From Dictyostelium discoideum (Eukaryota): a stretch of DNA of 64,000 nucleotides. Where the stretch lies: contig CM000150.2 of the NCBI GenBank assembly GCA_000004695.1, positions 1,856,001 through 1,920,000 of the forward strand. The letters are read 5' to 3'. The notes beneath the pieces were generated by a model. That model worked only from the letters and a program-made list of their open reading frames with translations, ran no database searches and had not been told where the DNA came from. The translations under genes and the position numbers were made by a program. Of the stretch, positions 10,297 to 38,492 are shown in pieces (within the stretch, counting starts at the first letter, position 1; every line of letters starts with the position of its first letter).

Positions 10297-10476
10297 TTAC
10301 TCTTCACTAAAACTTAAAAATTCATCTTCTTCACTTAAACTATAATCATTATCTTCTAAAACAGTATTATCTTCACCCTCTTTATTTATTTTCTTGATTC
10401 TATTACATTCACTCTCACTATAATAATTTTCTTTGTCTTCATGCTCACCCTTGTCACCATCATCTTCATCATCATC

Positions 10477-10521
<45 letters not shown>

Positions 10522-13500
10522 TTCATCCTCGTCTTCGTCTTCGTCCTCATCTTCATCATCATATTCATCTTCAGAATCTGAATGAGGTTGAATTAATCCA
10601 TTTGGATTTAAATAGTCATATTCTTGAATTTGTTGTTCTAAAACACTGATACCTTTGGAATCAATTGAGACCATTGAGTTTATTGAATGAACATATTGAC
10701 AAAATGGACCCCAAGTTCTATCTTTTTTTAAGAGTTTAGAATTACCAATTACAAATAATCCAAATTTAGCTCTTGTGAGTGCGACATTAATACGTCTACG
10801 ATCAGAAAGGAAACCAATTCTTTCGCTTCTTACACACGATAAAATTATGATATCTTTTTCTGAACCTTGAAAACCATCAATTGTTGATGTTTCAATATTT
10901 AATGGATAATTAAACTGTTTATGTTGTTCTTTGATTTCACTCTTTTGTAATTTATATGGCGTAATAATACCAAATGAGAACTTTTTACATTCTGGATAAT
11001 CTTGAACTAACTTTTTAATCAATGTGAATACCATTGTGATTTCTAATTTATTCTTTAATGATCTTTTACCACTTTCTTCTTTTGAATCAATAACATCATA
11101 GAATCTAATTGGACCATATTTGATATCTGAATGGAAATTATGTTGATTGTATACTAATGACTTTACATTATCACCATCTAATAATCTGTCTCTATAGAAT
11201 TGATTTGATGGGAATCTTGAAATTGTTGGATGCATACGATATTGAACATGTAACATTTCAACTGGTAATACTTTTGATAATCTTTCGAATAATGATATAT
11301 TTAAACCATTTTCTGCACTTTCTGTAGAGAAGATAGTTGGTGGTAATTGTAATGGATCACCAACGAGAATTAACTTTTCAATATTACCAATACATAATGG
11401 AATTATTGATGATGGTTCAGTTGATTGAGTTGATTCATCTACTAATATAATATCTGCTCTAAAGTTGTTCTTAACAGTTTCAGAACCACTTCCAGATAGA
11501 GTTGAGAAAACAATGGATGCTCTATAGATACTATCAGATTTCTCACGTTGAGTTTTATTGAAAATTGAAATACTATGACAATCTGGTGATATATTTTCCT
11601 TTTTACCAATACGTACCATATTTGGTAAATAAGGTTTACCATCTAAACCTATTAATTTCTTTTTTGAACATCTCTTTGCAATTTCATCTACTGATGCATG
11701 TGATGGACCACATACTAATATCTTGAATTCTGGATTAATTGCTAATAAAATTGAAAGTAAATAATAAATTGTTGTAGTTTTACCAGTACCTGGTGGACCT
11801 TGAATTAATGTAATACCTTTTGTTGATAATGATGTTTCAATTGAATTAAATTGTGATGTATTCAATTCTTGAATACACATGGATCTCAACAATGATGGAA
11901 TAGCCATTCTCTTTGAGGATAGTATATCGTGGTCTTTTCTTGATGGTTGTAAAATTTGATCAAATAGTATTCCAGAATTTCTAAAATCTTTTATTGCATT
12001 CAACTCTCTAATGAATGTAATGCAATTTGAAACTTTTATAAAGTATAACTTTTCTTTTATAGTATTGGAATCTTTCAAATAGTTTTTATGATTGAATGAA
12101 ATTGAATCAAACATTTCTATTATAGGATCCATTGAATCTGATGAATGAAATTTACATTTTACAATTTGTGTATTCTCTTCTAAATCAACATTTGAACAAT
12201 TGAGTACTAAACCCATTGCAAACATTGGTTCATTGGTATTATCAAATACTTTAAAAAGTAAAACATCATTATAAAATAATTCTTGGGACCCATCATTTAC
12301 ATCAATTTCAAACTTCATAATTGAATAGTCGGATATCTCTTTAAATGAGTGAATTGTTGGTCCATCAATCATCTTAATTTTATCTAAACCTATTAATGTA
12401 CCATCTTTTTCTGATATTGAAACACCTTCAATTTCATCAAATTCACCTGCAAGTTGTTTCCTATATTCCTCCACTATCAAAGGTTTCATTAAATCCATAT
12501 ATTCTTCATGATTTGAGTAACTTGATTTCAAATTTCTAATACTATTCACCTGTATTAATGGAATTCTTTCTGGACTAATCTTTAAAAATATTGATAATAT
12601 TTCGTAAGGACTCTTTAAAAAAACACTAACTAATTCACGAATTAATACAATTTTTAAAAAATTTTCATTATTATTATAATTGTTTTTATTATTATTATTA
12701 TTAAATTTATTATTTGATTTGGTTGTTGTTGTTGTAGTAGTTGTTGGTGTTGTTGTTGGTGTTGGAGTTGGTGTTGATGATGAGTTTATTAAAACCTTTT
12801 CATTTTTAATTAATTGATAAATTTCATTAAATAACAATTTTGAAATTAAGGTTAACCTTTCAGAGTTTAATAATTTAAAAGTTGGAATTTTAATAGCGGA
12901 ACGATTAATTTTTGTTTTAGATTTAAATTTTTTGATAAAACCATCAGAGAATTTACCTCTAATTAAATCTAAAAAGTTTAATTTAGTTTCATTATTTCTC
13001 TCTAATTCTAATTTCAATTGATCTGAATTTATGGGTCTAAAAGTTTTTGTTTTTTCTTTTAACTCTGAAATTTGTGAGAAATGGTTGAATTCTATCATTA
13101 CCATTAATGATAATGATTTTTGATAAATTGAATCAATATTTTCAGTATTTATATTATTTCTTTGAACCATTGAAATATCGTGTATTAATCTAATTTTTAA
13201 AACTTGAATATGCATATTAAATTGATTTTTGTTCTCATCAATTATTTTCTTTACTTGTTCTAATGATGGTTGATAAGATGGATTCAATTTTGATAATGTA
13301 TCCAATTTTCTAAAAATTAAATCTGCACTATTTGAATCTTCAAATATTAAATTTAATAAACTACGTTTCAATGGTTGGTTTATATCAAAAGTGGATGAAC
13401 CACTTTGAGGTGTTGTTGTTGTATGAGTGGTTGCGGTTGTGGTGGTTGTGGTAGGTGAAAGTGAATCTGGTTCAATCACTGATTTAGTTGAGGCAATTTT

Positions 13501-15103
13501 TTGTGGTATTTGTTTTATTGTTGGTTGGGCCTCGTTTGGTTTACCTGGATTTATTGGAGCTGGTAATGACGGTAAAGTTGTTGTTGTAGGAGTGGTTGTG
13601 GTTGTGGTTGTAGTTGTGGTTGTGGTTGTGGTTGTGGTAGGAGAAAGTGAATCCGGTTCAATCACTGATTTAGTTGAGGCAATTGTTTGTGGTATTTGTT
13701 TTATTGTTGGTTGGGCCTCATTTGGTTTACCTGGATTTATTGGAGCTGATAATGATGGTAAACTTGTTGTTGTTGTTGTTGTTGTCGGAGTGGTTGTGGT
13801 GGTGGGTCTTATTGAAGTTGTTGTGTTTGTGGTGGTTATGGTAGGTGAAAGTGAATCGGATCCAATCACTGATTTAGTTGAGGCAACTGTTTGTGGTATT
13901 TGTTTTATTGTTGGCTTGGCTTCATTTGATCTACCTTGATTTATTGGAGCTGAGAATAATGGTAAACTTGTTGCTGTCGTCGACGTTGTTGTTGTTGTTG
14001 TTGTTTTTGTTGTTTTTGGTGCATTTGAATAGATAGTATACTTTTCTGATAAAGATTTTCCTTTTCCTATTAGCTTCATACATTTTTCAAATGATTCACA
14101 AATTTTGATAAAATTTGAATCAATTAAACCATCTAAATACTCTGTAAATCTTAAATCATTGATACGATAATTTTTATTCTTTAAAACTGTTCTAAATTCA
14201 ATTAATTCTTTTTTTAATTTACTTGGAAAAATACATTTTTCAATATCTAAAAACGATATTGGCATTTCAAATTGTACAGAAGTTTCTATTTCAATTCTAC
14301 CTCTAATTTTTTGTATTCTATTTGATGTTAATCTTTTAAAAAAAAAACTAAACTCGATTAAAAAATTTAAATTACTATAATCACTATATAATTGATATAT
14401 ATTTCTTTTAATTATATCATCTTCATCTTCATCTTCACCTTCATCTTCATCTTCATCTTCATCTTTATTATTATTATTATTATTATAATATAATAAATCA
14501 TTTCTTTGAAAAAATGTAGGAAATTTAGAAGAGACATGAATTGAAGCTGTATATTTGACATTGTTGATTTTACGTAATAAAAAGAATTTTGATGAGGATT
14601 TAAGTAATACTTCTTGAATTTTACTTTGAAAAGTTGGAAAATAATTTTCAATATCCTCTAAACTATCTATTAATATTGATGAGTTTATAGTTTCAGTGGT
14701 AATTTGAGGTGTTGGTGATAAATTAATTGTTTCATTTAATTGAGTTAATAATACTCCAAGTTTTGGGTAAAGTGATTTTATATAATTTGAAACTGTTTGA
14801 TTTGGAAGAGGCAATGAGAAATCTGGAATCATATATGATTCTGTTTTATTTGTAGGAGTGAAAATATATGGTTTTGAAATTAAATTTGGATCAAAAGTAC
14901 CAATTTTTTTAAATTTTATTGAAATTCCACTTGATTTTAAATGATTTTTAAAGTCATTTATAGAATTTTTTTTTGAACTTTTTGTTTGTGAAAAATGATT
15001 CTTTAATAAATGTATTTGATAATGTACATTAAATTTTATAATGGTTTGAAATTTGATAAATTTATTAAAAAAATCACTTGATAAAATTAAATGCTCACTA
15101 ACT

Positions 15104-15198
<95 letters not shown>

Positions 15199-15670
15199 TA
15201 AAAAATTATTCTTTATTTCTTTTAATAATTTTTTTTTTAATTTTTCAATCAGAGTAGTAAAAAAATCATCTTCCAAAGCTTCAATTATAAATTCTAGTTG
15301 ATCTACACATGTTGGAAATTGGACTTTTAATTGTTTAATTGTTTCTAATTGTTTTTTGGGGTTATTACATTCTTTAAATATTAATTTTATTAGATTATTA
15401 TTATTATTATCATCATTATTATCATCATTATTATTATTATTATTATTACTATTATTATTACTATTATTATTATTGTTATTATTATTATTAATGGTATTTG
15501 TCGATGATAATTCAGATTGCGTTGGATTTATTAATGACAAAGAAGGTGACAGATTTTTGCTTTCACTAGAAAAATTAAATGAGAGTTAGAAAAATGGCAA
15601 AAAAAAAAAAAAAAAAAAAAAAATATCTAATATCAATATTTTACTCTTCTGTTTTTAAAATAGAACCCAT
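10297..15670 (-). CDS. Giant UPF1/SEN1-like SF1B RNA/DNA helicase, paralog A (about 1764 aa; micro-exon plus one intron; no NTase domain; acidic D/E tail)
   Basis: Exon 1 spans 15670..15645 (ATG GGT TCT ATT TTA AAA ACA GAA GA; donor gtaaaa). The 79-nt intron has acceptor tttttctag (reverse complement of 15566-69). Exon 2 spans 15565..10297 (phase 2 closes as GAT). All helicase motifs are present: I TLIQGPPGTGKTTTIYYL; Ia ILVCGPSHASVDEIA; II ILVDESTQSTEP; III LILVGDPLQLPPTIFS; IV QYRMHPTISRFPSNQFYRDRLLDG; V DGFQGSEKDIIILSCVRS; VI IGFLSDRRRINVALTRAKFGLFVIGN. N-terminal region: four copies of a helical module with an LIEFSNL/LMVMIEFNHFSQ motif, separated by T/P/S-rich linkers including three tandem 57-aa repeats (13440-13990). 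Ends in a poly-D/E tail. Confidence 0.8.
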
Positions 15671-16261
15671 ATTTTTTTTTGTGTAGGTGATAATAAAAAA
15701 AAAAAAAAAAAAAAAAAAAATTAAAAAACAATACAATAATATATCCAATTATATACAATTATATATACAATGGTTTTATTTGTTGTGTTGAATTTTTAAA
15801 ATAAAAAATAAAAAAATTTTCAAATACGAATCAAAATTTGGGTTTTAAAAAAAAGAAAATTCAAAAAAAAAAAAAAAAAATCAAAAAAAATTAAATTAAA
15901 AATCCGATTAAGTACGATTTAAAATAAAAAAAAAAAAAATAAATAATAAAATGAAATAATATAAAAAAAAATAATAAAATAAAATTATAAAAAAGAAAAA
16001 ATTTGTATCATTTATTTTAAAATAAAAGAATAAAAAAAATTAATTTAAAACTTTACTTTTTTTTTTTTTTATTACTAAAATAAATGGACAATTTAAAAAA
16101 AAAAAAAAAAATAAAAAAAATTTTAAAAAATGGAAAAATTTTGATTTGTCGTCCCCAAAAAAAAATCAAAGAGAAAAAGAAAAAAAAATAAAAAAAAAAA
16201 AAATTTGGTTATTTTTTTTTATTTTTTTTTTTTTTATATAAATAGATATTTTCAATTGTGT

Positions 16262-16680
16262 TTATAAAAAAAGAGTTAAAATGAGTTTAGGGACATTAGT
16301 TTTAAAAAAAAAAAACGTAGGTAAAATTGGTGGATTTAATGACTGAAGGAAATGAATTACCATATTAACTAAACAGAATGAACTAAATGTTTTCTCTGCT
16401 GCATTATTTAAATCTTTTGAGATTGCCCACCATTTTACTAATAATGCTAAATCTATACATCTATTATCAATTGAACAATATTCACCTAACAATAATGAAT
16501 TGTGATAACTAATCATTGAATTAAAACACATATCGAAATGAATACCTGATGATATCTCTTTGAATCTAATGATTGGTATTTTTGCATCCATTCTTTTTTC
16601 AATTAATTTATATTGTTGAGATCTATTTAAGTATTTATAAACTTGTTTTAAATAAGTTGTATCTTCCTTTTGAATACATG
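16262..16680 (-). pseudogene. Orphan fragment of the Cid1-like nucleotidyltransferase domain (copy of paralog-B region about 17853-18200)
   Basis: Translates (ORF 16262..16591 plus upstream) to ...KEDTTYLKQVYKYLNRSQQYKLIEK..MDAKIPIIRFKEISSGIHFDMCFNSMISYHNSLLLGEYCSIDNRCIDLALLVKWWAISKDLNNAAEKTFSSFCLVNMVIHFLQSLNPPILP, then diverges. No start, no upstream helicase. Confidence 0.75.
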
Positions 16681-16689
16681 AAAATATAT

Positions 16690-16843
16690 CACCAGATTGT
16701 CATCGTATATCTCTTTTTGATAAAACACTAGCACAAAGAAAAGAAATTCTTAAGAATGCAAATATTGTTTTCTCAACATTATCAGCAAGTGGTTCTGGTC
16801 CTGTTAGAAGTAACTTTAAAGCAAATATTGTACATGCACAAGT
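16690..16843 (+). pseudogene. Inverted orphan fragment of the helicase domain (matches the reverse complement of paralog B about 19690-19850: ...PDCHRISLFDKTLAQRKEILKNANIVFSTLSASGSGPVRSNFKANIV)
   Basis: Plus-strand sequence is the reverse complement of the minus-strand helicase coding sequence and is fused directly to the NTase fragment. It breaks off into a degenerate (acaggt..)n stretch at 16850-16930. Confidence 0.7.
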
Positions 16844-17354
16844 ACAAGTTTAACAGGTTCATCAGATTTAACAGGTTTAACTGGTACAGGTAAAGGTTTT
16901 TACAGGTTTAGCAGATTCAGGTAAAGGTTGTCAGGAAGATTATAAATCTACCTATGCACTATGACATTAGGAGTGGTTTAATATTTTTTAATACTTAGAC
17001 AATAATAACAATAAAAAAACAAAAAAAAATTTTATTTTTATTTCTTAAAAAAGTAAACAAAATAAATAAAATAGAAATTTTGCCTATTGCAATAGTAAAG
17101 ATACAATTTTTAAAAATTTAAAATCGAAGTCATAATTTAATAAATAAAAATAAAAATAAAATTATTTGTTTTTTTAAATAATTCCCATGGAATTTAGATT
17201 TTGCCTTAAGAAATCTATCCGTAAATATTTTTACAAGATTAAAAAAAAAAAAAAAATTCAAATTTACTTGTCCTTTTATTTATTTTAATTTAAACAAAAA
17301 AAAAAAAAAAATGGTTTGGGTATTATTTTTTAATTTTTTTTTTTTTGTAAAACT

Positions 17355-20300
17355 CTAAGAAAGTAATCCATTTGACGATAATGATAAATTCTCTTTGAAT
17401 AAATCATTAATTGTTGTTTTGGTTGATCTTAAAGAATATTCCATCATTGTGAATTCCATTAATACTCTTTGGTATGTTTTTTTAATTGATGATGCTAAAT
17501 TTCTATCATTAATAAATGGATCAAGTACAATGATATGACCTTTTACTGGTGTACCCTTTATAGTTGATCTTTTTAATAATGCTCCATTTTCACATAAACT
17601 ACCACCACCACTTGAGTGACTAATTGATATGATATTCTCTTTATAATTAAATGTTGAATAATAATAAAAGAATTGATAAAACAATTGAGCGATTGTCAAT
17701 TTGTTTCTTTTTGGTTCAAATTTGTTAAAACTTGACCAATCATAATATTTAACTAAATAATTTTCTACGATTGTTTGTGATTTTAATTTAATTAAATTTC
17801 TATCTGTTGAATACTTTTCTAATAGTTGATTTGATGTTGTTTGTAAATTTGGTAAAATTGGTGGATTTAATGACTGAAGGAAATGAATTACCATATTAAC
17901 TAAACAGAATGAACTAAATGTTTTCTCTGCTGCATTATTTAAATCTTTTGAAACTGCCCACCATTTTACTAATAATGCTAAATCTCTACATCTTTTATCA
18001 ATTGAACAATATTCACCTAACAATAATGAATTGTGATAACTCATCATAGAATGAAAGCACATATCGAAATGAATACCTGATGATATCTCTTTGAATCTAA
18101 TGATTGGTACTTTTGCACTAATTCTTTTTTCAATTAATTTATATAGTTGAGATCTATTTAAATATTTATAAACTTGTTTTAAATGAGTTGTATCTTCTTT
18201 TTGAGTACTTGAGAAATTAATATCTAAATCACTATCATTCAATGATAATCCACTCAAGAATGAACCATATAAATTAATTGATGCTGTTGCGAAACCTTCT
18301 GATATTAATTTCTTTAATCTATTATAACTATCTTGTTTAATTGATTTCTTTTTACATTCAATTTTTGAAATAATTTCATTAAGAGAATTATTTGTTTTTG
18401 ATGATGATAAAGATTGTGAAATTTCTTGTATTTCTAAATTATTTAAAACTTTCTTTAAATATGAATCCAAGAGACGTGAATATTTAACAAAACTATCTCT
18501 TAATGTTTTCTTTTTTGATAAAGTTGATTGATCTATTTTTTCTTGATTTGATTTTTGTAATTCTATAATAATATTAATAAGAGTGTTTGGAAAATCTTTA
18601 TCAATGATTAAATTATTTGAATCTGGTGAAACTGTCTCATCTTCATCATCATCATCGCTGATACTATAATATTCATCATCATCATCATCCAAATCATCAT
18701 TATCTTCACCTTCTTGATTAATTTTCTTGATTCTATTACTTTCATCATCTTCATCATGCTCTTGTATTTCTTCATTATCTTCATCTTCGTCTTCCTCTTC
18801 ATCTTTACCATCATATTCATCTTCAGAATCTGAATGGAATTCAATTAATCCATTTGGATTTAAAGAGTCATATTCTTGAATTTGTTGTTCTAAAACACTG
18901 ATACCTTTAGAATCAATTGAGACCATTGAGTTTATTGAATGAACATATTGACAAAATGGACCCCAAGTTCTATCTTTTTTTAAGAGTTTAGAATTACCAA
19001 TTACAAATAATCCAAATTTAGCTCTTGTGAGTGCGACATTAATACGTCTACGATCAGAAAGGAAACCAATTCTTTCACTTCTTACACATGATAAAATTAT
19101 AATATCTTTTTCTGAGCCTTGAACCCCATCAATTGTTGATGTTTCAATATTTAATGGATAATTAAACTGTTTATGTTGTTCTTTGATTTCACTCTTTTGT
19201 AATTTATATGGCGTAATAATACCAAATGAGAACTTTTTACATTCTGGATAATCTTGAACTAACTTTTTAATCAATGTGAATACCATTGTGATTTCTAATT
19301 TATTCTTTAATGATCTTTTACCACTTTCTTCTTTTGAATCAATAACATCATAGAATCTAATTGGACCATATTTGATATCAGAATGGAAATTATGTTGATT
19401 GTATACTAATGACTTTACATTATCACCATCTAATAATCTGTCTTTATAGAATTGATTTGATGGGAATCTTGAAATTGTTGGATGCATACGATATTGTGTA
19501 TTTAACATTTCAACTGGTAATACTTTTGATAATCTTTCAAATAATGATATATTTAAACCATTTTCTGCACTTCCTGATGAGAAAATAGTTGGTGGTAATT
19601 GTAATGGATCACCAACAAGAATTAACTTTTCAATATTACCAATACATAATGGAATTAGTGAAGCTGGTTCAGATGATTGAGTTGATTCATCTACTAATAC
19701 AATATTTGCTTTAAAGTTACTTCTAACAGAACCAGAACCACTTGCTGAAAGAGTTGAGAAAACAATATTTGCATTTCTAATAATTTCTTTTCTTTGTGCT
19801 GGTGTTTTGTCATAGGGTGATATACGATGACAATCTGGTGATATATTTTGAAGTTTACCAATACGTACCATATTTGGTAAATAAGGTTTACCATCTACAT
19901 TTATTAAACTCTTTTTTAAACATCTCTTTGCAACTTCATCTACTGATGCATGTGATGGACCACATACTAATATCTTGAATTTTGGATTAATTGCTAATAA
20001 AATTGAAAGTAAATAATAAATTGTTGTAGTTTTACCAGTACCTGGTGGACCTTGAATTAATGTAATACCTTTTTTTGATAATGATGTTTCAATTGCATTA
20101 AATTGTGATGCATTCAATTCTTGAATACAAATGGATCTTAACAATGATGGAATCTCCATTCTCATTGATGTCATTAAATTATAAACTTCCAATGATGGTT
20201 GTAAAATTTGATTTAAAAGTGTTTTTGAATTTTTAAACTCTTCTGTTGCTTCTAATTCTCTAATGAATGTAGTACTATTAGAAACCTTTATAAAATGTAA

Positions 20301-23300: not shown

Positions 23301-24273
23301 TGGTACTGTTGGTGGTGATACAGTTGTTGTTGTTGTTGCTAATGACACTGCTGGTGGTGTTATATCAATAACTGATGTAGATGATATTTTCTGTTCTATT
23401 GTAGTTGTACCTAAACATTTATTATATAATTTACAAAGGTTGATAAAGTTTGATTGAATTGAAATTGATATATCTTGAGAATCTGAAAATTTTAAATAAT
23501 TTATTTTATAATTTTTACCCTTTAAAATAAATTTGAAATCATTTGAAATTTGACGAAATTTTGATGGATAATTACATTTGAAAACCTCTGATAATGTTAT
23601 TGTTATATTTTGAGCTGACAATTGATCATAAAGCCTTTGTTTTTGATCAGCTGTGATTGATGTATCATCTGTAAATAATTTCTTTAAAATTAATCTTTGA
23701 TATAAAAAACTAAATTCAATCATAATTTTCAATGCTATAAAATCATTATAAATTTGAAAAATATCGTTATTATTATTATTACGATTGATATTATTTAATA
23801 AATTTGTTTTTTTAACTAATTTACTAAATTTATCAGAGACATCTATTGAAGAAGATGTTTTAATAATTCCAATTTTATTCTCTAAAGAAGTTTTATCATT
23901 TTCTAAAATTTCTTTAATTTTCTTAATATCGAAATTTGGAAATAATTTACAAACACCATTAATTCCATTTATGATATCTTTTAAATTACTATGCTTGAAT
24001 ATAGTTTTAAAAATATCATTTTCATTACTATTTATAATTTGTGAATTTTCAGTAATATTCAATTTGTTCATATTATTTATTATTGAATCCATTGTACTAT
24101 TGGTGTTAGTGTTGGTAGTGGTAGTGGTACTGGTGGTGGTAGTGGTACTGGTGGTGCTCGATTCTACAGTTGTTTTTGTTTTTTCTGGTACGCTTTGAGA
24201 AATTGGATTGTTATTATTTGATGAAGGTGGTGGTGGTGGTGGTGGTGAAGTTGATGAATTTGGAATATTTTCC

Positions 24274-24310
<37 letters not shown>

Positions 24311-24413
24311 AATGGGAATTAGGAAAACAGGTATAACATAGAATTTTAAAATTTTATGAATTGAATTTTATAATATTAATATTTTACCCTTCTGTTTCTA
24401 AAGAAGAACTCAT
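17355..24413 (-). CDS. Giant UPF1/SEN1-like helicase fused to a C-terminal Cid1/GLD2-type nucleotidyltransferase (TUTase/ncPAP) domain, paralog B (about 2314 aa)
   Basis: Exon 1 spans 24413..24388 (ATG AGT TCT TCT TTA GAA ACA GAA GG; donor gtaaaa). The 114-nt intron has acceptor tttttttag (reverse complement of 24274-76). Exon 2 spans 24273..17355. The table ORF (17355..24092) starts at an internal Met; the frame is open upstream to the acceptor. Helicase motifs match paralog A (about 18900-20300). After an acidic linker the C-terminal region (about 17355-18500) carries the Pol-beta NTase signature ASINLYGSFLSGLSLNDSDLDINFS (Cid1: GSFKSGLYLPTSDIDL), a third carboxylate in IHFDMCF, and a PAP-associated domain LLLGEYCSIDKRCRDLALLVKWWA..FSSFCLVNMVIHFLQ. 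Four N-terminal helical modules with (TP)n linkers encoded by (ggtgtt)n. Confidence 0.85.
22445..22612 (-). repeat. (ggtgtt)n / (ggagtt)n hexanucleotide microsatellite encoding a (TP)n linker inside paralog B. Equivalent arrays lie at 30125-30300 in paralog C.
   Basis: Direct inspection: about 28 tandem hexamers. The plus-strand ORFs 22351..22638 and 22373..22735 are shadows. Confidence 0.85.
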
Positions 24414-25041
24414 TTACAATTGTTGATTATTTTTTTTTTTTTCTTTAATTTTTTTTTTTTTTTTTTTTTTGGATCTTTGTTTTTTTTTTTTTTTTCTATT
24501 TTTTTTTTTTGAGAAAATGAGAAATTAGGTTTAAAAAAAAAAAAAAAAAATTTGTCAAATTTAAATTCCCGTAAAATTTTTTTTTTTTTTTTTTTTTTTT
24601 CACGAAAAAAAAGGGAAATTTAAATTTGAATCAAAAAACCATTTTTTTTTTTTTTTTCATTTTATTTTTTTTTATTTTTTTTTACCAAAATGATTTAAAC
24701 TTATTTATTTTTAATTTAAATTTGGTTTAGATAAATAGAACACAAAAATACACAAAATTATATAAAAAATAAAAAAAATGAATGTAGTCATCCCATTTTA
24801 TTTTTTTTTTTTTTTTTTTTTTTAATATTTTTATAAATCACCAGAAATTCAAAATATCTCTCGCTTTTATAAAATCAAAAAACTATGGGTAATTAATTTA
24901 AAAAAATTGGATATCTCCAAAGTAAAAAAAAAAAAAAAAATACAAATTTACTTGTCCTTTTTATTTATTTTAATTTAAACAAAAAAAAAAAAAAATGGTT
25001 TGGGTATTATTTTTTAATTTTTTTTTTTTTTTAAAAAAACT

Positions 25042-28000
25042 TTAAGAAAGTAATCCATTTGACGATAATGATAAATTCTCTTTGAATAAATCATTAATTG
25101 TTGATTTGGTTGATCTTAAAGAATATTCCATCATTATGAATTCCATTAATACTCTTTGGTATGTTTTTTTAATTGATGATGCTAAATTTCTATCATTAAT
25201 AAATGGATCAAGTACAATGATATGGTCTCTTACAGCTCTACTCCTTATATTTGATCTTTTTAATAATGCTCCATTTTCACATAAACTACCACCACCACTT
25301 GAGTGACTAATTGATATGATATTCTCTTTATAATTAAATGTTGAATAATAATAAAAGAATTGATAAAACAATTGAGCGATTGTCAATTTGTTTCTTTTTG
25401 GTTCAAATTTGTTAAAACTTGACCAATCATAATATTTAACTAAATAATTTTCTACGATTGTTTGTGATTTTAATTTAATTAAATTTCTATTTGTTGAATA
25501 CTTTTCTAAGAGTTGATTTGATGTTGTTTGTAAATTTGGTAAAATTGGTGGATTTAATGATTGAAGGAAATGGATTACCATATTAACTAAACAGAATGAA
25601 CTAAATGTTTTCTCTGCTGCATTATTTAAATCTTTTGAAACTGCCCACCATTTTACTAATAATACTAAATCTCTACTTCTATTATCGATTGAACAATATT
25701 CGCCTAACAATAATGAATTGTGATAACTCATCATTGAATTAAAACACATATCGAAATGAACACCTGATGATATCTCTTTGAATCTAATGATAGGTACTTT
25801 TGCATCCGTTCTTTTTTCAATTAATTTATATAGTTGAGATCTATTTAAATATTTATAAACTTGTTTTAAATGAGTTGTATCTTCTTTTTGAGTACTTGAG
25901 AAATTAATATCTAAATCACTATCATTCAATGATAATCCACTCAAGAATGAACCATATAAATTAATTGATGCTGTTGCGAAACCTTCTGATATTAATTTCT
26001 TTAATCTATTATAACTATCTTGTTTAATTGATTTCTTTTTACATTCAATTTTTGAAATAATTTCATTAAGAGATTTATTTATATTTGATGAGGATGATGA
26101 TAAAGATTGTGAAATTTCTTGTATTTCTAAATTATTTAAAACTTTCTTTAAATATGGATCCAAGAAACGTGAGTGTTTTATAAAATTATCTCTTAATTTT
26201 TTCTTTTTTGATAAAGTTGATTGATCTATTTTTTCTTGATTTGATTTTTGTAATTCTATAATAATATTAATGAGAGCATTTGGAAAATCTTTATCAATGA
26301 CTAAATTATTTGTATCAAATACTTCTTCATCTTCATCATACTCTTCGCTGATACTATGATATTCTTCATCACCATGCTCATTATCATCATCATCATCATC
26401 CTCCAAATCATCATTATCTTCACCTTCTTGATTAATTTTCTTGATTCTATTACTTTCATCATCTTCATCATGCTCTTGTATTTCTTCATTATCTTCATCT
26501 TCGTCTTCCTCTTCATCTTCACTATCATCATAGTCATCTTCAGAATCTGAATGGAATTCAATTAATCCATTTGGATTTAAAGAGTCATATTCTTGAATTT
26601 GTTGTTCTAAAACACTGATACCTTTAGAATCAATTGAGACCATTGAGTTTATTGAATGAACATATTGGCAAAATGGACCCCAAGTTCTATCTTTTTTTAA
26701 GAGTTTAGAATTACCAATTACAAATAATCCAAATTTAGCTCTTGTGAGTGCGACATTAATACGTCTACGATCAGAAAGGAAACCAATTCTTTCGCTTCTT
26801 ACACACGATAAAATTATGATATCTTTTTCTGAACCTTGAACTCCATCAATTGTTGATGTTTCAATATTTAATGGATAGTTAAACTGTTTATGTTGTTCTT
26901 TGATTTCACTCTTTTGTAATTTGTATGGTGTAATAATACCAAATGAGAACTTTTTACATTCTGGATAATCTTGAACTAACTTTTTAATCAATGTAAATAC
27001 CATTGTGATTTCTAATTTATTCTTTAATGATCTTTTACCACTTTCTTCTTTTGAATCAATAACATCATAGAATCTAATTGGACCATATTTGATATCTGAA
27101 TGGAAATTATGTTGATTGTATACTAATGACTTTACATTATCACCATCTAATAATCTGTCTTTATAGAATTGATTTGATGGGAATCTTGAAATTGTTGGAT
27201 GCATACGATATTGTGTATTTAACATTTCAACAGGTAATACTTTTGATAATCTTTCAAATAATGATATATTTAAACCATTTTTTGCACTTTCTGATGAGAA
27301 AATAGTTGGTGGTAATTGTAATGGATCACCAACAAGAATTAACTTTTCAATATTACCAATACATAATGGAATTAGTGAAGCTGGTTCAGATGATTGAGTT
27401 GATTCATCTACTAATACAATATTTGCTTTAAAGTTACTTCTTATTGGTTTAGAACCACTTGCTGATAGAGTTGCGAAAATAATAGTTGCATTTCTAATAA
27501 TTGCTTTTCTTTGTGCTGGTGTTTTATCAAAAAGTGATATACGATGACAATCTGGTGATATATTTTGAAGTTTACCAATACGTACCATATTTGGTAAATA
27601 AGGTTTACCATCTATATTAACTAAACTCTTTTTCAAACATCTCTTTGCAACTTCATCTACTGATGCATGTGATGGACCACATACTAATATCTTGAATTTT
27701 GGGTTAATTGCTAATAAAATTGAAAGTAAATAATAAATTGTTGTAGTTTTACCAGTACCTGGTGGACCTTGAATTAATGTAATACCTTTTGTTGATAATG
27801 ATGTTTCAACTGCACTAAATTGTGATGTATTCAATTCTTGAATACACATGGATCTCAACAATGATGGAATCTCCATTCTCATTGATGTCATTAAATTATA
27901 AACTTCCAATGATGGTTGTAAAATTTGATTTAAAAGTGTTTTTGAATTTTTAAATATTTCCGGTGCTTCTAATTCTCTAATAAATGTAGTACTATTAGAA

Positions 28001-31000
28001 ACCTTTATAAAATGTAAAATATCTTTTGAAGTTTTCGAATTCAACGAAACTGAATAAAACTTTTCAATTAATGGTTTCGTTGAATCCGATAATACAAATT
28101 CGCAAATAATTATTTGTTTTTTACCCTTTAAAACTGAATTTGATGTTACTAACCCCAATGCAAACATTGGTTTACTAGTATGATCAAATGTTTTAAAAAG
28201 TAAAATATCATTAAGGTATATTTCCTCTAATTCATCCTTAACCTTAATATTAAATTTAATTGCAACCAAATCCTCTGACAACTCTCGGAATGAATGAATT
28301 GTTGGTGTATCATTCATCTTAACTCTATCTAAACCTATTAATGTACCATCTTGCTCTGAAATTGAAACACCTTCAATTTCATTAAAATCACCTTCGAGTT
28401 GTGCTCTATATTCTTCTACTATTAAAGGTTTCATTAAATTTACAAATTCTGATTGGTCAGAATAACTATCTTGTAATGAATGAATATTATCAGCTTGAAT
28501 TAATGGAATTCTTTCTGGACTACTCTTTAAAAATATTGATAATATCTCTTCAGAATCTTTTGAAATTACTTCAACATGATCACGAACTAAAACAACTTTT
28601 CCATTATTATTATTATTATTATTACTATTATTGTTATTTCTTGATCTTATTGTAGTTGTTCCTGTTGAGGAGTTGACAAACAACTTTTCACTTTTAATTA
28701 ATTGATAAATTTCATTAAATTGTAACTTTGAAATTAAACCTAACTTTTCAGAATTTAATAATTTAAAAGATGGAATCTTTAAAGTTGAACCATTGATTTT
28801 TGTTGTTGATTCAAAGTTACTGACGAGATTATCAAAGAATTTACCTTTAACTATATCTGAAAATTCTAATTTCATTTTATTATTTTTTGCTAATTCTGAA
28901 TTCAATTGATTGAGGTATTGTCTACAAGTCTTTGTTTTTTCTCTTAATTCTGAATACTGTGAGAAATGATTAAACTCTAATAATACCATTAATGATAATG
29001 ACTTGTTATATATTTTTTCAATATTTTGATTGCTTGTATTATTTTTTTGAATCTTTGAAAAATCTGTTTTTAATCTATGTTTAATACCATTAATATTTGT
29101 ATTAAATTGAATTTTACTCTCATTGATTATATTCCTAACTTGTTTAATTGATTCTTTGTTATAAGGATGTGATTGTGATAATCTATCCAATGTTTTAATA
29201 ATTGAATCTGCACTATTAGAATCTTCAAATATTAATTTCAATAAACTATGTTTCAATGAATGGTCATTCTCAAATGTTGTAGTAGTATTATTATTAGAAC
29301 TAGGTGATGGTACTATTGATATTTGTGATGTTGTTGTTGGTGATGGTGCTGTTGTTGTAGCTTTATCTTTTATAATACTAATGGTAGCTGAAGCTGTGGG
29401 TGTTGTTGAACTTGTTGTATTAGATATTTTTTGTGAATTTGAAAGTGATAAATCTTTATAATCCAACACTAAAGATTTTATATAAATAATAAAAGATTTT
29501 ATTAAAGTTCCAATTGTATTATCACTTTGATTTTTATGACCAAGTGGTAATTTAAATAACTCTACATTCATCGTATATTCAGTTTTTTTAGATTTAGATT
29601 TAATATTTAATTCTACTTGTTCTGGAATATAGTTTAAAATATCTATTGATTTTTGATCAATAAATGCTTCAACTTTAATACAAAATCTTTGGTGGTGAAT
29701 ATTCAATAAATTGAATGCCTCTAATTTAAAATTCAAAATATCTTGTGAGTTTTCAACTGTGAAATTTTTATCAAAATATTCTTTAATATAATTTCTTTGA
29801 GAAAGATTACTAAATTCAATTAATGAAATGATTGTAAAAATTGTTTCATTAATTTCATTAAACTTTGATGGATTTACACTTGATATTAATAATTCCTGTA
29901 CAGCTTTTGATGTATTGTTTTTATGAAATTCAATCTTTCTTTTGAATAATGAAATTATATCCTTAGTCGCTGATTTAATTAAACCAATTTGTAAATTAAA
30001 TGCTGGATATTGATTCTTTAAACTATCAATTTCCTCTGGTTTATTAAAAAATGTATTAAATAATGAAAATATTTGTTTTTCAATATTTGATGGTTTCTTC
30101 AAAATTACTGTTGGTATATTTGATAATAACTCTTTTGGTGTTGTTGGTGTTGGTGTTGGTATTGGTGTTGGTGTTGGTGTTGATGTTGGTGTTGGAGTTG
30201 GAGTTGATGTTGGTGTTGGTGTTGATGTTGGTGTTGGTGTTGATGTTGACGTTGGAGTTGTGATTGTTGGTGGTGGTACTGGTACTGGTACTGGTTTTAT
30301 TTCTGTTGGTGATGCTGTTGTTGTAGTTGTTGAGTCTGATAAAAGTTGATAATCTAAAATTAAAGATTTTATATAAATCAAATGTGATCCGATTAATTGT
30401 CCAATGGTATTACTATCGTTATTTTTGTGACCAATTTGTAATTTAAATAAATCAATGTTAAATAAAACTTTTTCAGATTTTAATTCTAATTTCGATGGTA
30501 CTGGAACGAAATCTAAAACATTAGATGATATAGTTTGACTAATGAGTTTTTCTAAATCAATTTTTAAACTTTGATGTTGAATTTCTAATAAATTGAAAAG
30601 CGATGGATGTATTCTCTTTGGATTGGGTAAATGTTTTTTAAGAGTAATTCTTTGGTAAAGATTACTAAACTCTATTAATAAAACGATAGTAACTAGTGTA
30701 GTTTTAATTTCTTCAAATTTTATAAAGTTAATCTTTGAATCCAATGATTTTTTAAGTTGATTTAATGTTGTAATTTTCACTGAATCTATGATACTTTGAA
30801 ATGATGTTTGGTTTTCTTTTATAATTGTTTCAACTGATAATAATTCAAATTCAAAGATTGAGTGTTTTTTAATCAAATCTTGAATACCTTCTAATTTGTA
30901 GAAAATTTTATAAAAAATTGAAAAAACTATGATTTCAGTAGTTGTTGGTTCCATTGTGAATATTGTTGATGATGATGATGATTCCACTGTTGGTGATTTT

Positions 31001-32712
31001 GTTGATGATGTTGATGGTTTTGGTAATGCTGTTGGTGATGGTGTTGGTGATGGTTTTGGTAATGCTGTTGATGGTGTTGTTGGTAATGCTGTTGTTGGTA
31101 ATGGTGTTGATGGTTTTGGTAATGGTGTTGGTGATGGTGTTGGTAATGCTGTTGATGCTGATTTTGTTGATGTTGTTGATGGTGTTGGTTTTGTTAATGG
31201 TGTTGATGGTGATTTTGATGCTGTTGTTGTTGATGCTGTTGTCGTTGGTAATGGTGTTGATGATGACTTTGTTGATGGTGTTGGTAATGCTTTTGTTGGT
31301 AATGGTGAAGCTATACCTAAACATTTATTATATAATTTACAAAGGTTGATAAAGTTTGACTGAATTGAAATTGATATATCTTGAGAATCTGAAAATTTTA
31401 AATTTTTTATTCTATAATATTTACCCTTTAAAACAAAATTGAAATCATTTGAAATTTGATGAAAACTAGGTGGGTTATTACATTTGAAAACCTCTGGTAA
31501 TGTTATTGTTCTATTTTGAGCTGACAATTGATCATAAAGTTTTTGTTTTTCATCAGCTGTGATTGATTTATCACCTGTAAACAATTTCTTTAAAATTAAT
31601 CTTTGATATAAAAAACTAAATTCAATCATAACTTTCAATGCTATAAAATCATTGTAAATTTGAAAAATATCATTGTTATTATTATTATTATAATTATTAT
31701 TAGGATTGATATTATTATTATTTAATAAATCTTTTTTTTGAACTAAATTTCTAAATTTATCAGATATTTCTTTTGATGCTATATTTTCAGTATATTCAAT
31801 TTTATTCCCTAAAGAAGTTTGATTGCTTTTTAAAATTTCTTTAATATAATTAATATCAAAACTTGGGAATAATTTAGAAACATAATCAGTTTCATTTATG
31901 ATATCTTTTAAATTACTATGTCTGAATATAGTTTTAAAAATATCAAATTCACCACCACTATTTATAATTTGTGAATTTTTAGTAATATTCAATTGGTTCA
32001 TATTATTTGTTATTGAATCTATTGTTGATGTATTTGTTGTTTTAGTAGTTACACTTTGATAAATTGGAGTTTGTGCTATTGATGTTAATGTTGGTTGTAA
32101 TATTGGTGGTGCCTTTGATGATATTGGTACTGTTGGTGGTGGTGATATTGGTGATACTGTTGAGGGTGTTGCTAATTGTGCTACTGTTGGTGGTAATGGC
32201 ATTGTTGATGGTGGTGATATTGGTACTGTTGGTGGTGATATTGGTACTGTTGGTGGTGATGATGGTGGTGGTGGTAATGGCATTGTTGGTGGTGATGGTG
32301 GTAATGGCATTGTTAGTGGTGGTGGTGGTAATGGCATTGTTGATTTTGATGATATTGGTACTGTTGGTGGTGCTGTTGATTGTGTTGATATAGATGATAC
32401 TGTTGAGGGTGTTGCTACATCTGATGTTGGTGGTGTTGTATAGAAGATGCTGTTGTAGATTGTTGATGTTAATTTTGATAAAAGAGAAAAAGAAAAATAA
32501 GAAAAATAAGAAGAAGAAGAAGTAGAAGGTGGTGGTGATGGTGGTAATGGTGGTGATGGTGGTGATGGTGGTGATGGAATTGATGAATCACTTAAAAATA
32601 AAAAAAGGAAATGGAATTTAGAGAAATTAGTATATAGTGGAGTATTAAAAAATTAAATGACTTATATTTTATAATATTAATATATTTACTCTTCTGTTGT
32701 TAAATAGTTCAT
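25042..32712 (-). CDS. Giant UPF1/SEN1-like helicase fused to a C-terminal Cid1/GLD2-type nucleotidyltransferase domain, paralog C (about 2523 aa)
   Basis: Exon 1 spans 32712..32690 (ATG AAC TAT TTA ACA ACA GAA GA; donor gtaaat). The 99-nt intron has acceptor ttatttttaag (reverse complement of 32591-94). Exon 2 spans 32590..25042; phase 2 is consistent and gives ...TEDDSSIPSPSPSPSPLPP.... The table ORF starts at an internal Met at 32337. P-rich N-terminus (MPLPPPP x3), four helical modules, the full helicase motif set (about 26600-28000), and an intact NTase motif YGSFLSGLSLNDSDLDI plus VHFDMCF and the PAP-associated domain (25042-26200). The last about 1.3 kb plus 100 bp of 3' flank is about 97% identical to paralog B. 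Confidence 0.85.
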
Positions 32713-38279: not shown

Positions 38280-38321
<42 letters not shown>

Positions 38322-38492
38322 GGGTTGAACAGAATTATTTTAGTTAGAATTTAAATTAATTGTTTAAAAATAATTAATATATAAATAAATTTTTGATCAT
38401 TTGTAAATAATTATAACAAAGTATTTTGGTTTTAATTTCAAATAAAAAAAATAATATTACTTTTAAAAGAAGTTAGAATTTTAGATTATTGG

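What the first reader, a model, noticed from the sequence alone, without database searches (positions are those of the whole stretch)
10297..32712. Tandem array of three giant UPF1/SEN1-like helicase paralogs, two of them fused to a Cid1-type terminal nucleotidyltransferase
Three head-to-tail minus-strand genes occupy 22 kb; together with the scar between A and B they make up about a third of the window. All three share the same architecture. A conserved 8-aa micro-exon is followed by a single intron of about 80-115 nt. Four copies of an uncharacterised 200-250-aa helical module, with recurring [IL][IM]IEFS[NF]L.QR motifs, are joined by P/T linkers. Then comes a complete SF1B helicase core with UPF1-type motifs (DESTQ.TEP, GDPLQLPP, QYRMHP...FPS..FY, FQG.EKD.IILSCVR, LNVALTRAK). 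Paralogs B and C continue, after an acidic spacer, into a Pol-beta-superfamily NTase domain. Its motifs are closest to Cid1/GLD2/TUT4/7 (GSFLSGLSLNDSDLDI, HFDMCF, PAP-associated domain). Paralog A ends before this domain. A covalent UPF1-like-helicase-to-TUTase fusion is a Rosetta-stone version of partnerships that in animals and yeast are non-covalent. Examples are MOV10 with TUT4/7 in L1 restriction, UPF1 with TUTase in histone mRNA decay, and helicase with NTase in TRAMP-like complexes. This points to a self-contained 3'-tailing-coupled RNA surveillance or silencing machine. I am not aware of this architecture as a described protein family. The N-terminal modules have no recognisable homology.
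Basis: partly seen in the sequence, partly recalled or inferred. Interest (0 to 1): 0.85.

Follow-up and report, generated by a model that had tools for sequence, protein, structure and literature searches.

The report
Helicase fused to RNA-tailing enzyme, tandem array
Three neighbouring giant genes in a Dictyostelium-type genome encode a Sen1/UPF1-like RNA helicase, and two of them carry an RNA 3'-end tailing enzyme on the same polypeptide, an unstudied fusion found so far only in social amoebae that suggests unwinding and tailing are done by one protein.

Summary
Three head-to-tail minus-strand genes (A 1764 aa, B 2314 aa, C 2523 aa) each have a 23-26-nt first exon, one 79-114-nt intron and one giant exon. 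All three have a complete SF1B helicase core (Pfam AAA_11/AAA_12, E 1e-42 to 1e-60). B and C continue in the same open reading frame into a Cid1/TUT-type nucleotidyltransferase with an intact catalytic triad. A stops in the acidic spacer.

- The helicase is closest to Sen1, not UPF1.
- A has two clear N-terminal modules, not four.
- The "scar" is a rearranged fragment of a fourth copy.
- The uridine-selectivity histidine of Cid1 is Arg here, so "TUTase" is not established.

The fusion is not unique. Fused proteins occur in four other dictyostelid species (seven proteins), all annotated as hypothetical or "regulator of nonsense transcripts-like". Their helicase cores form one clade (100/100 bootstrap) next to a dictyostelid Sen1. 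I found no fusion outside Dictyostelia and no paper on it.

The enzymatic domains are under purifying selection (dN/dS 0.24-0.45). The N-terminal modules evolve fast (0.6-0.8) and have no detectable sequence or fold relatives.

Most likely function, by inference: helicase-coupled 3' tailing in RNA surveillance or silencing.

The parts
25042..32712 (-). Gene C (2523 aa). Exon 1 is 32690-32712, the intron 32591-32689, exon 2 25042-32590.
   Evidence: Gene model. A called gene with a product of exactly 2523 aa sits at this position in a 99.6%-identical assembly. Pfam domains.
28669..31959 (-). C: four N-terminal modules joined by Pro/Thr-rich linkers. M1 is 31309-31959, M2 30364-30942, M3 29473-30087, M4 28669-29268.
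   Evidence: Module HMM coordinates (aa 219-435, 558-750, 843-1047, 1116-1315). Alignment A1.
26704..27837 (-). C: SF1B helicase core (AAA_11 + AAA_12).
   Evidence: ORF aa 1501-1878, E 3.5e-42 and 2.5e-59.
25045..26301 (-). C: helical lead-in plus Cid1-type NTase (palm and PAP-associated domain).
   Evidence: MTPAP-like_central 2.7e-20, PAP_assoc 3e-8. The catalytic G-S, DxD and third Asp are conserved.
17355..24413 (-). Gene B (2314 aa). Exon 1 is 24388-24413, the intron 24274-24387, exon 2 17355-24273.
   Evidence: Gene model. A called product of exactly 2314 aa in the 99.6%-identical assembly. B and C are 90% identical in DNA over 6.2 kb.
20949..24038 (-). B: four N-terminal modules. M1 is 23403-24038, M2 22653-23237, M3 21789-22397, M4 20949-21548.
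   Evidence: The AlphaFold2 model of M3 has pLDDT 82.6 and pTM 0.81 and shows a helical bundle, a beta-hairpin and a C-terminal helix.
20160..20912 (-). B: pre-helicase accessory region (aa ~1130-1380). It is conserved in all dictyostelid fusion proteins.
   Evidence: It aligns with the D. purpureum orthologue at 26% identity, E 4e-15. dN/dS is 0.35.
18987..20120 (-). B: SF1B helicase core. Motifs read directly: GPPGTGKT, VLVDESTQS, GDPLQLPP, QYRMHP, DGVQGSEKD, RRINVALTRAK.
   Evidence: dN/dS for B versus C is 0.24.
18615..18857 (-). B: acidic, low-complexity spacer between helicase and NTase.
   Evidence: Read from the translation.
17358..18614 (-). B: Cid1/TUT-type NTase domain (aa 1896-2314).
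   Evidence: dN/dS is 0.45.
16320..16744 (-). Scar: NTase fragment equivalent to B aa 2013-2150. It lacks the G-S/DxD part and the PAP-associated part.
   Evidence: tblastn 82% amino-acid identity. blastn 94% identity to B over 16320-16690. It contains a 109-aa ORF at 16262-16591.
16680..16832 (+). Scar: inverted helicase fragment equivalent to B aa 1484-1533.
   Evidence: tblastn 86% identity. blastn 91% identity to B in reverse orientation.
10297..15670 (-). Gene A (1764 aa with the micro-exon model). Exon 1 is 15645-15670, the intron 15566-15644, exon 2 10297-15565. It is helicase-only and ends in the acidic spacer.
   Evidence: An alternative 1847-aa annotation uses the scar ORF as the first exon.
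12781..14673 (-). A: M1-like module (14062-14673), three tandem ~62-68-aa Thr/Pro-rich repeats (13439-14013), and the M4 module (12781-13383).
10735..11868 (-). A: SF1B helicase core. Long stretches are 94-100% identical in DNA to B and C, which indicates gene-conversion tracts.
   Evidence: E 7e-45 and 1e-59. Sliding-window identity.

Best explanation
What is shown:
- The locus is a lineage-specific tandem expansion of a dictyostelid gene family.
- The family's protein combines three parts: fast-evolving N-terminal helical modules, a Sen1-like SF1B helicase with its accessory region, and, after a flexible acidic tether, a Cid1-type terminal nucleotidyltransferase.
- The domain composition is demonstrated. 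Helicase and NTase lie in one exon. The catalytic residues are intact. The enzymatic domains are under purifying selection. The family is conserved across Dictyostelia.

What is inferred (mechanism):
- The N-terminal modules select the target RNA or RNP.
- The helicase loads and moves 5' to 3', as Sen1 and UPF1 do, stripping proteins and structure.
- This brings the tethered NTase to the freed 3' end, where it adds a short untemplated tail.
- The tail marks the RNA for decay or for entry into a silencing pathway.
- Which nucleotide is added is open. The ancestral family members keep the uridine-selective His of Cid1. B and C have Arg at that position.
- A, which lacks the NTase, would act as a helicase-only variant, possibly a regulator or partner.

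The rapid N-terminal evolution, tandem duplication, gene conversion and pseudogene scar fit a role in genetic conflict with retroelements, viruses or aberrant transcripts. Nothing here shows that directly.
For: Domains:
- Pfam AAA_11/AAA_12 in A, B and C; MTPAP-like_central, TUTase and PAP_assoc in B and C.
- The helicase is nearest to Sen1 (5mzn, 235 bits), then UPF1.
- The NTase is nearest to TUT4, TUT7, URT1, GLD2 and Cid1.

Single ORF:
- 2245 and 2431 stop-free codons in 22% G+C DNA, P about 1e-96 and 1e-104.
- Independent gene calls give identical product lengths for B and C.

Catalytic competence:
- The G-S motif, the DxD pair, the third Asp, the K..W...K lysines and the SS[YF] motif are invariant across eight family members.
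- All helicase motifs are present.

Family and origin:
- The seven best NTase relatives out of 1.84 billion representatives are dictyostelid helicase-NTase fusions. They come from D. purpureum, Acytostelium, Cavenderia and Heterostelium.
- Their helicase cores are monophyletic at 100/100 bootstrap. They sit next to a Synstelium polycarpum protein that carries a SEN1_N domain.
- Tandem paralogues also occur in Acytostelium.

Selection and dynamics:
- dN/dS is 0.24 for the helicase, 0.45 for the NTase and 0.35 for the pre-helicase region, against 0.62-0.79 for the modules.
- The modules are undetectable in the D. purpureum orthologue.
- A versus B/C identity is mosaic, 94-100% against 70-80%, which indicates gene conversion.

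Precedents for helicase-NTase cooperation:
- MOV10 with TUT4/7 on LINE-1 RNA (PMC6191937).
- Hrr1 (the ZNFX-1 orthologue) with Cid12 and an RdRP (PMC9276528).

The 5'-to-3' polarity of Sen1 and UPF1 is established knowledge of those families and was not tested here.
Against: - I have no transcript, protein or activity data.
- Nucleotide specificity cannot be predicted. B and C have Arg, and D. purpureum a degenerate sequence, at the position I take to be Cid1 His336 (the residue number is from memory).
- A lacks the NTase yet keeps an intact, conversion-homogenised helicase. The helicase therefore has a role that does not need a covalently attached NTase.
- Sen1-type helicases also act on DNA and R-loops, so an RNA substrate is assumed, not shown.
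- dN/dS of 0.6-0.8 in the modules fits relaxed constraint as well as it fits an arms race.
- The good module model rests on a pooled alignment. An independent model of M4 alone failed, with pLDDT 43.
Confidence: 0.6

Rival explanations
1. A nuclear, Sen1-derived machine. The helicase dislodges or terminates non-coding or aberrant transcripts, or resolves R-loops. The attached NTase adds oligo(A), as TRAMP does, to hand them to the exosome.
For: The helicase is closest to Sen1 and sister to a dictyostelid Sen1. The U-selective His is replaced by Arg in B and C. Short oligo(A) tails on snRNAs, pre-rRNA and pri-miRNA intermediates are documented in D. discoideum, with no enzyme assigned beyond assumed TRAMP orthologues (PMC6161686).
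Against: The NTase domain scores far higher against the cytoplasmic-type enzymes TUT4/7, URT1, Cid1 and GLD2 (76-121 bits) than against Trf4 (53 bits). No SEN1_N domain is detected. Three of the orthologues keep the Cid1-type His.
Confidence: 0.2
2. An RDRC-like module. The fusion would be the covalent counterpart of fission-yeast Hrr1 plus Cid12. It would prepare or tail target RNAs so that the Dictyostelium RdRPs can make secondary siRNAs against retrotransposons.
For: Hrr1 (an SF1 helicase) and Cid12 (an NTase) work with an RdRP in one pathway (PMC9276528). The family shows rapid evolution and copy-number turnover, as expected for genome-defence genes.
Against: The helicase is not of the ZNFX1/Hrr1 type, scoring 93 bits against ZNFX1 and 235 against Sen1. 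No link to RdRP or Argonaute proteins is visible in the locus. No small-RNA data are available.
Confidence: 0.12
3. UPF1 paralogues acting in nonsense-mediated decay, as the names in other dictyostelid proteomes imply ('Regulator of nonsense transcripts-like').
For: Database names of the orthologues. UPF1 is the second-best solved relative at 214 bits.
Against: No UPF1 zinc-binding CH domain is detected. The core is nearer to Sen1. The names look like automatic transfers from the shared AAA_11/AAA_12 domains.
Confidence: 0.04
4. A recently amplified, functionally decaying array or a mobile-element cargo. The ORFs would be open only because the duplication is young.
For: There is a pseudogene scar between A and B. 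A has lost the NTase. Orthologues are not syntenic.
Against: dN/dS is well below 1 in the enzymatic domains. ORFs of 5-7 kb are intact in DNA with about 9% stop-codon probability. The family is conserved across all the sampled dictyostelid genera. There are no RT, integrase or transposase domains. The flanks are ordinary housekeeping genes.
Confidence: 0.04

Closest known systems
Dictyostelid helicase-NTase fusion proteins: D. purpureum DICPUDRAFT_150267, Heterostelium album EFA85443, Cavenderia fasciculata EGG19861/EGG15164/DFA_06958, Acytostelium subglobosum GAM26769/GAM26767
   Same: Collinear pre-helicase region, AAA_11/AAA_12 core, conserved post-helicase segment, acidic spacer, and Cid1-type NTase with an invariant catalytic triad. 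The helicase cores are monophyletic. The genes tend to occur as paralogues or tandems.
   Different: The N-terminal regions are unrelated in sequence. The four-module array is seen only here. Group 1/2 proteins are 1250-1530 aa with short N-termini. Several of them keep the Cid1-type His that B and C have replaced by Arg. None has been studied experimentally as far as I could find.
Sen1 (yeast) / senataxin / MAGATAMA3 helicases
   Same: Best-scoring helicase relatives, up to 44% identity. They share the GDPxQLPPT-type motif III and the accessory region upstream of RecA1.
   Different: No SEN1_N domain is detected. The N-terminus is different. There is a C-terminal NTase. This is not an orthologue: a separate Sen1 exists in dictyostelids.
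Cid1 / TUT4 / TUT7 / URT1 / GLD2 terminal nucleotidyltransferases
   Same: Pol-beta palm with G-S, DxD and a third Asp. A PAP-associated domain is present. The triphosphate-binding lysines are conserved.
   Different: About 30% identity. There are no CCHC zinc knuckles. The enzyme is attached to a helicase. Arg replaces the uridine-selective His.
Non-covalent helicase-NTase partnerships: MOV10-TUT4/7 on LINE-1 RNA, Hrr1-Cid12-Rdp1 (RDRC), Mtr4-Trf4-Air (TRAMP)
   Same: The same two activities are combined on one RNA substrate for decay or silencing (PMC6191937; PMC9276528; TRAMP from general knowledge).
   Different: Those are separate polypeptides. Their helicases belong to other subfamilies: MOV10, ZNFX1-type, and Ski2-like with 3'-5' polarity. 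Here the link is covalent and the helicase is Sen1-like.

Membership tests
UPF1-like (DNA2/NAM7) SF1B helicase superfamily | Two RecA domains with motifs I, Ia, II, III, IV, V and VI | tested here: met
   AAA_11 and AAA_12 at E 1e-42 to 1e-60 in A, B and C. The motifs were read directly.
UPF1 (NMD factor) orthologue | N-terminal Cys/His-rich zinc-binding (CH) domain that binds UPF2 | tested here: not met
   No UPF1_Zn_bind or other zinc-domain hit in the Pfam scan at E <= 0.01. The N-terminus consists of novel helical modules.
Sen1/senataxin orthologue | Helicase core most similar to Sen1/SETX | tested here: met
   5mzn Sen1 is the top PDB hit at 235 bits. The top 120 database hits are Sen1, senataxin or MAGATAMA3.
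Sen1/senataxin orthologue | Large N-terminal SEN1_N (PF12726) domain | tested here: not met
   Not detected in A, B or C. It is present in the sister protein P0001 from Synstelium.
Cid1-family non-canonical poly(A)/poly(U) polymerases (TENTs) | Pol-beta NTase palm with the hG[GS] motif, the DxD pair and a third catalytic Asp | tested here: met
   YGSF..G....D.D and FD.CF are invariant in alignment A2. MTPAP-like_central scores E 6e-19 and 3e-20.
Cid1-family non-canonical poly(A)/poly(U) polymerases (TENTs) | PAP-associated (PAP/OAS1 substrate-binding) domain | tested here: met
   PAP_assoc at E 3e-8, above the gathering score, in B and C.
Terminal uridylyltransferase (U-specific subset) | Histidine equivalent to Cid1 His336 in the DPFxxxHN motif (residue number from my own knowledge) | tested here: not met
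   B and C read DPFINDRN, with Arg at that position. His is present in three orthologues, Asn or Ser in two, and the sequence is degenerate in D. purpureum. Specificity itself cannot be tested with these tools.
Dictyostelid helicase-NTase fusion family (uncharacterised) | Collinear Sen1-like helicase and Cid1-type NTase in one polypeptide, with the helicase inside the fusion clade | tested here: met
   B and C meet both criteria. A meets only the clade criterion because it has lost the NTase.
Transposable-element ORF | Reverse transcriptase, integrase, transposase or Rep domain, or terminal repeats | tested here: not met
   No such Pfam domains. The flanking genes are an aminotransferase, a cyclin and other housekeeping genes.
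RDRC-type silencing complex component | Physical or functional coupling to an RdRP and Argonaute | not testable with these tools
   Needs co-purification and small-RNA data.

The most novel reading that the evidence does not exclude
The family is a self-contained RNA-directed defence effector of social amoebae. Fast-evolving, duplicating N-terminal modules would recognise retroelement, viral or aberrant RNPs. The Sen1-like motor would strip them 5' to 3'. The tethered NTase would then tag the exposed 3' end for destruction or siRNA amplification. That would be a single-polypeptide version of the MOV10-TUT4/7 or Hrr1-Cid12 partnerships, with a new recognition fold.
Probability: 0.25. Interest if true: 0.8.

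Novelty: new variant of a known kind. Interest (0 to 1): 0.6.

Why it matters
Helicases and 3'-tailing enzymes cooperate repeatedly in RNA decay and silencing: TRAMP, RDRC, MOV10-TUT4/7, and UPF1-linked histone mRNA decay. How the two activities are coordinated on one RNA is hard to study when the partners only meet transiently.

A natural covalent fusion argues that the coupling is direct and selected. This one is conserved across the sampled dictyostelid genera and sits in a haploid, genetically tractable organism. It offers a single recombinant protein in which translocation-to-tailing hand-off can be measured.

The helicase-only paralogue A and the His-to-Arg change give built-in comparisons. 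The fast-evolving N-terminal modules are a new fold-level unknown that may be target-recognition domains.

It also corrects misleading database names ('regulator of nonsense transcripts').

Tried and rejected
Searches that were blocked or empty:
- Exact look-ups of the three proteins found nothing. The source genome seems held out of some tools.
- Word-indexed homologue searches with helicase+NTase, with NTase alone, and with an NTase family profile returned no fusion protein. That tool did not return the dictyostelid orthologues that the exhaustive search found.
- The AFDB Foldseek library was unavailable.
- One look-up with a small flanking ORF found nothing.

N-terminal module:
- Foldseek against PDB and against viral models gave nothing better than E 0.3.
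- I reject any fold assignment.
- The module HMM and hhalign found nothing in orthologues.
- An independent AlphaFold model of M4 from three sequences failed (pLDDT 43). The claim that all four module classes share one fold therefore rests on weak profile-profile scores and collinear motifs only.

Other:
- A short C-terminal NTase query to PDB, meant to show the Cid1 His alignment, found nothing. I read that position from the family alignment and from my own knowledge of the Cid1 motif.
- NCBIfam gave only sub-threshold helicase hits (IGHMBP2 family, PLuB helicase-like).
- Eight literature searches found no paper on the fusion.
- Transposon, UPF1-orthologue and dead-pseudogene readings were considered and rejected for the reasons given under the rival explanations.

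Full report
**Where we are**

The window is about 22% G+C, with poly-Asn and Pro/Thr tracts and short AT-rich introns. That is the signature of a group-4 Dictyostelium genome (translations).

A 21-kb stretch is 99.6% identical to contig JBTAPE010000039.1 of NCBI assembly GCA_054883475.1. The closest named orthologue of the genes of interest is from D. purpureum. I infer D. discoideum or a very close relative. No tool named the organism.

The flanking genes are ordinary: a class I/II aminotransferase, a cyclin, a purple acid phosphatase, a PAP2 phosphatase, a NAA35-like protein, a TH1/NELF-D-like protein and a tRNA-Thr.

Three minus-strand ORFs of 1747, 2245 and 2431 codons fill 10297-32337. 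With a stop-codon probability of about 0.09 per codon in this DNA, the chance of such ORFs is 1e-75 to 1e-104.

Each ORF extends upstream, in frame and without an ATG, to an AG acceptor. A 79-, 114- or 99-nt GT-AG intron precedes it, and before that a 26-, 26- or 23-nt first exon (MGSILKTE, MSSSLETE, MNYLTTE). The spliced products are 1764 aa (A), 2314 aa (B) and 2523 aa (C), with no internal stops.

The annotation of the near-identical public assembly has genes with products of exactly 2523 and 2314 aa at the positions of C and B. An independent gene caller therefore reached the same models.

For A it reports 1847 aa. The arithmetic fits a first exon of 92 codons taken from the ORF inside the scar (ATG at 16591, donor after 16317), spliced over about 750 nt to the same acceptor. 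I favour the micro-exon for A for two reasons. It is conserved in position, phase and donor sequence with B and C. Dictyostelium introns are also typically short, which is my own knowledge. Only transcript data can settle this.

**Domain content**

- Pfam finds AAA_11 and AAA_12 in all three proteins (E 1e-42 to 1e-60).
- In B and C only, it finds MTPAP-like_central (6e-19, 3e-20), TUTase (2e-8) and PAP_assoc (3e-8) at the C-terminus.
- Helicase and NTase lie in one uninterrupted exon, separated by an acidic low-complexity spacer.
- A aligns with B up to B residue ~1885, inside that spacer, then stops. tblastn finds no NTase remnant downstream.
- There are no RT, integrase or transposase domains.

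**What kind of helicase**

Against solved structures the core scores as follows:

| Relative | Bits |
|---|---|
| Sen1 | 235 |
| UPF1 | 214 |
| IGHMBP2 | 141 |
| DNA2 | 110 |
| ZNFX1 | 93 |
| Aquarius | 68 |

Against 5.8 billion proteins the top 120 hits are Sen1, senataxin or MAGATAMA3 helicases. Motif III reads GDPLQLPPT. From my own knowledge this is the Sen1/SETX form, whereas UPF1 has GDHCQLGP. No UPF1 CH domain and no SEN1_N domain is detected. So this is a Sen1-like core in a new context. It is an orthologue of neither Sen1 nor UPF1.

**What kind of NTase**

The best solved relatives are TUT4 (121 bits), TUT7, URT1, GLD2 and Cid1 (76-99 bits). Trf4 scores 53 bits.

In an alignment of eight family members the following are invariant:
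- the G-S motif;
- the DxD pair;
- the third catalytic Asp (FDxCF);
- the K..W...K lysines;
- the SS[YF] motif.

The position I take to be the uridine-selective His336 of Cid1 (DPFEISHN, from memory) varies. It is His in three orthologues, Asn or Ser in two, Arg in B and C (DPFINDRN), and degenerate in D. purpureum. The enzyme is therefore very probably active, but calling it a uridylyltransferase is premature.

**The fusion is a family, not a one-off**

I ran an exhaustive HMMER search of the NTase domain against 1.84 billion cluster representatives. Among the best hits are:
- a 2271-aa protein at 44% identity;
- several 1250-1530-aa proteins with the NTase at the extreme C-terminus.

Pfam shows these carry AAA_11/AAA_12 upstream. 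Among the top 150 NTase relatives and their listed cluster members, exactly seven carry the helicase. They come from D. purpureum, Acytostelium subglobosum (two), Cavenderia fasciculata (three) and Heterostelium album. They are annotated 'hypothetical' or 'Regulator of nonsense transcripts-like'. The next-closest NTases are animal TUT4/7-like proteins.

In a neighbour-joining tree of helicase cores the fusion proteins form one clade (100/100 bootstraps). Its internal order matches dictyostelid taxonomy. A, B and C group together after the split from D. purpureum. The clade sits next to P0001, a Synstelium polycarpum protein that carries SEN1_N.

The simplest history is one fusion of a Sen1 duplicate with a Cid1-type NTase in, or before, the dictyostelid ancestor, followed by lineage-specific duplications. 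Acytostelium also has two copies in head-to-tail tandem. The D. purpureum and Cavenderia loci I looked at are single and not syntenic with this one.

I found no fusion outside Dictyostelia. Only the closest 150 NTase relatives were inspected, so independent fusions elsewhere are not excluded.

**N-terminal modules**

B and C each have four ~200-aa units separated by Pro/Thr linkers. The units share collinear landmarks: hFxxhF, a conserved Pro, the LIEFSxLxQR helix, an FKL strand pair and a terminal helix.

- M2 and M3 are clearly related, at 37-40% identity.
- The three module classes (M1, M2/M3 and M4) are linked only by profile-profile P values of 2e-5 to 1.6e-3.
- AlphaFold2 on the pooled ten-sequence alignment gives a confident model of M3 (pLDDT 82.6, pTM 0.81). 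It shows a bundle of long helices, a beta-hairpin and a C-terminal helix.
- M4 modelled from its own three sequences failed (pLDDT 43). The common fold is plausible but not independently shown.
- Pfam finds nothing. The module HMM finds nothing in the orthologues, not even in D. purpureum, where only the pre-helicase region aligns.

A differs from B and C. It has a divergent N-terminal ~270 aa, one M1-like unit, three tandem 62-68-aa Thr/Pro-rich repeats in place of M2/M3, and M4.

**Evolutionary dynamics of the array**

- B and C are 90% identical in DNA over 6.2 kb, including 3' flanks and weakly the promoter/intron region.
- A and B are 82% identical over 2.9 kb.
- Identity along the genes is mosaic. 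A versus B/C is 70-80% in M4 and the pre-helicase region. It is 94-100% around motif I and across the end of RecA1 and all of RecA2. That is the pattern of gene conversion.

dN/dS for B versus C (Nei-Gojobori):

| Region | dN/dS |
|---|---|
| Helicase | 0.24 |
| Pre-helicase region | 0.35 |
| NTase | 0.45 |
| N-terminal modules | 0.62-0.79 |
| Acidic spacer | ~1 |

The catalytic parts are maintained by selection. The N-terminal parts evolve nearly freely or adaptively.

Between B and A lies a 370-bp NTase fragment, 94% identical to B. It lacks both the DxD part and the PAP-associated part. It is fused to a 150-bp helicase fragment in inverted orientation. This is the remnant of a further copy destroyed by an inversion/deletion event.

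**How it most likely works**

Shown:
- the composition of the proteins;
- intact catalytic residues;
- purifying selection on both enzymatic domains;
- conservation of the fusion across the sampled dictyostelid genera.

Inferred from the established 5'-to-3' polarity of Sen1/UPF1-type helicases and from the known helicase-NTase partnerships (MOV10-TUT4/7 on LINE-1 RNA, PMC6191937; Hrr1-Cid12 with an RdRP, PMC9276528):
- The helicase translocates toward the RNA 3' end, clearing proteins and structure.
- The NTase, held on a flexible acidic tether at the helicase's C-terminus, tails the exposed 3' end.
- The tail directs decay or silencing.
- The variable N-terminal modules would choose the targets.

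Three variants cannot be separated here: cytoplasmic U-type tailing for decay, oligo(A) tailing of nuclear RNAs for the exosome, and RdRP-linked siRNA amplification. Short A tails on snRNAs, pre-rRNA and pri-miRNA fragments are known in D. discoideum (PMC6161686). I give the general mechanism about 0.6. The conflict or defence flavour is an attractive but unproven extension at about 0.25.

**Novelty and verdict**

Both enzymatic domains are well-known kinds. Their covalent combination, with a new N-terminal module, is an unstudied architecture.
- It already sits in public proteomes under uninformative or misleading names.
- I found no literature on it in eight full-text searches.
- The search library lacks most subscription-journal papers, so an existing description cannot be ruled out.

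I rate it a new variant of a known kind, of solid interest to RNA-decay and silencing specialists because it is directly testable in a tractable organism. It is not a categorically new system. Interest 0.6.

Noticed in passing
window 10735-11868 vs 18987-20120 and 26704-27837: Mosaic DNA identity between paralogue A and B/C. It is 94-100% around helicase motif I and across the end of RecA1 and all of RecA2, against 70-80% in flanking coding sequence. This indicates recent gene conversion that homogenises the helicase cores.
   Followed up: partly
window 16262-16591 (minus strand) and the called genes in L008: The public annotation of a 99.6%-identical assembly gives gene A a 1847-aa product. 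This matches use of the NTase-scar ORF (92 codons) as first exon over a ~750-nt intron instead of the conserved micro-exon. It could be an annotation artefact or a real chimeric transcript.
   Followed up: partly
window 37444-39600 vs 40106-41958: Two direct copies, about 86-90% identical over roughly 0.5 + 1.25 kb, of an AT-rich segment in a 15% G+C region downstream of the cyclin gene. This is a segmental tandem duplication of unknown content.
   Followed up: no
window 32872-32965: A ~94-bp imperfect palindrome (81% self-complementary) in the intergenic region between gene C and the divergently placed aminotransferase gene.
   Followed up: no
window 13439-14013: Three tandem 186-204-bp repeats (80-85% identical) inside gene A. 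They encode Thr/Pro-rich ~62-68-aa units in the position where B and C have modules M2 and M3.
   Followed up: partly
proteins P0121, P0306, P0309: 673-722-aa proteins with eukaryote-type Cid1-family domains (PAP_assoc, MTPAP-like_central, TUTase) are recorded on many contigs attributed to marine archaea (Candidatus Poseidoniales), including one contig of 1.6 Mb. This is an unexpected host for the family, or a binning problem.
   Followed up: no
window 7435-7506: tRNA-Thr (anticodon AGT) on the plus strand, about 2.8 kb beyond the 3' end of gene A.
   Followed up: no
window 2322-4328 (minus strand): A 668-aa ORF with a hemerythrin HHE cation-binding domain (E 1e-6) and low-complexity repeats. 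It is annotated as a gene in the related assembly.
   Followed up: no
alignment A2; L001: The D. purpureum orthologue has degenerate versions of several helicase and NTase motifs: GLTGTGKT, DDATQS, GDPVQSLPK and QDLFSSKIS. It may have lost one or both activities although the catalytic Asp residues remain.
   Followed up: no
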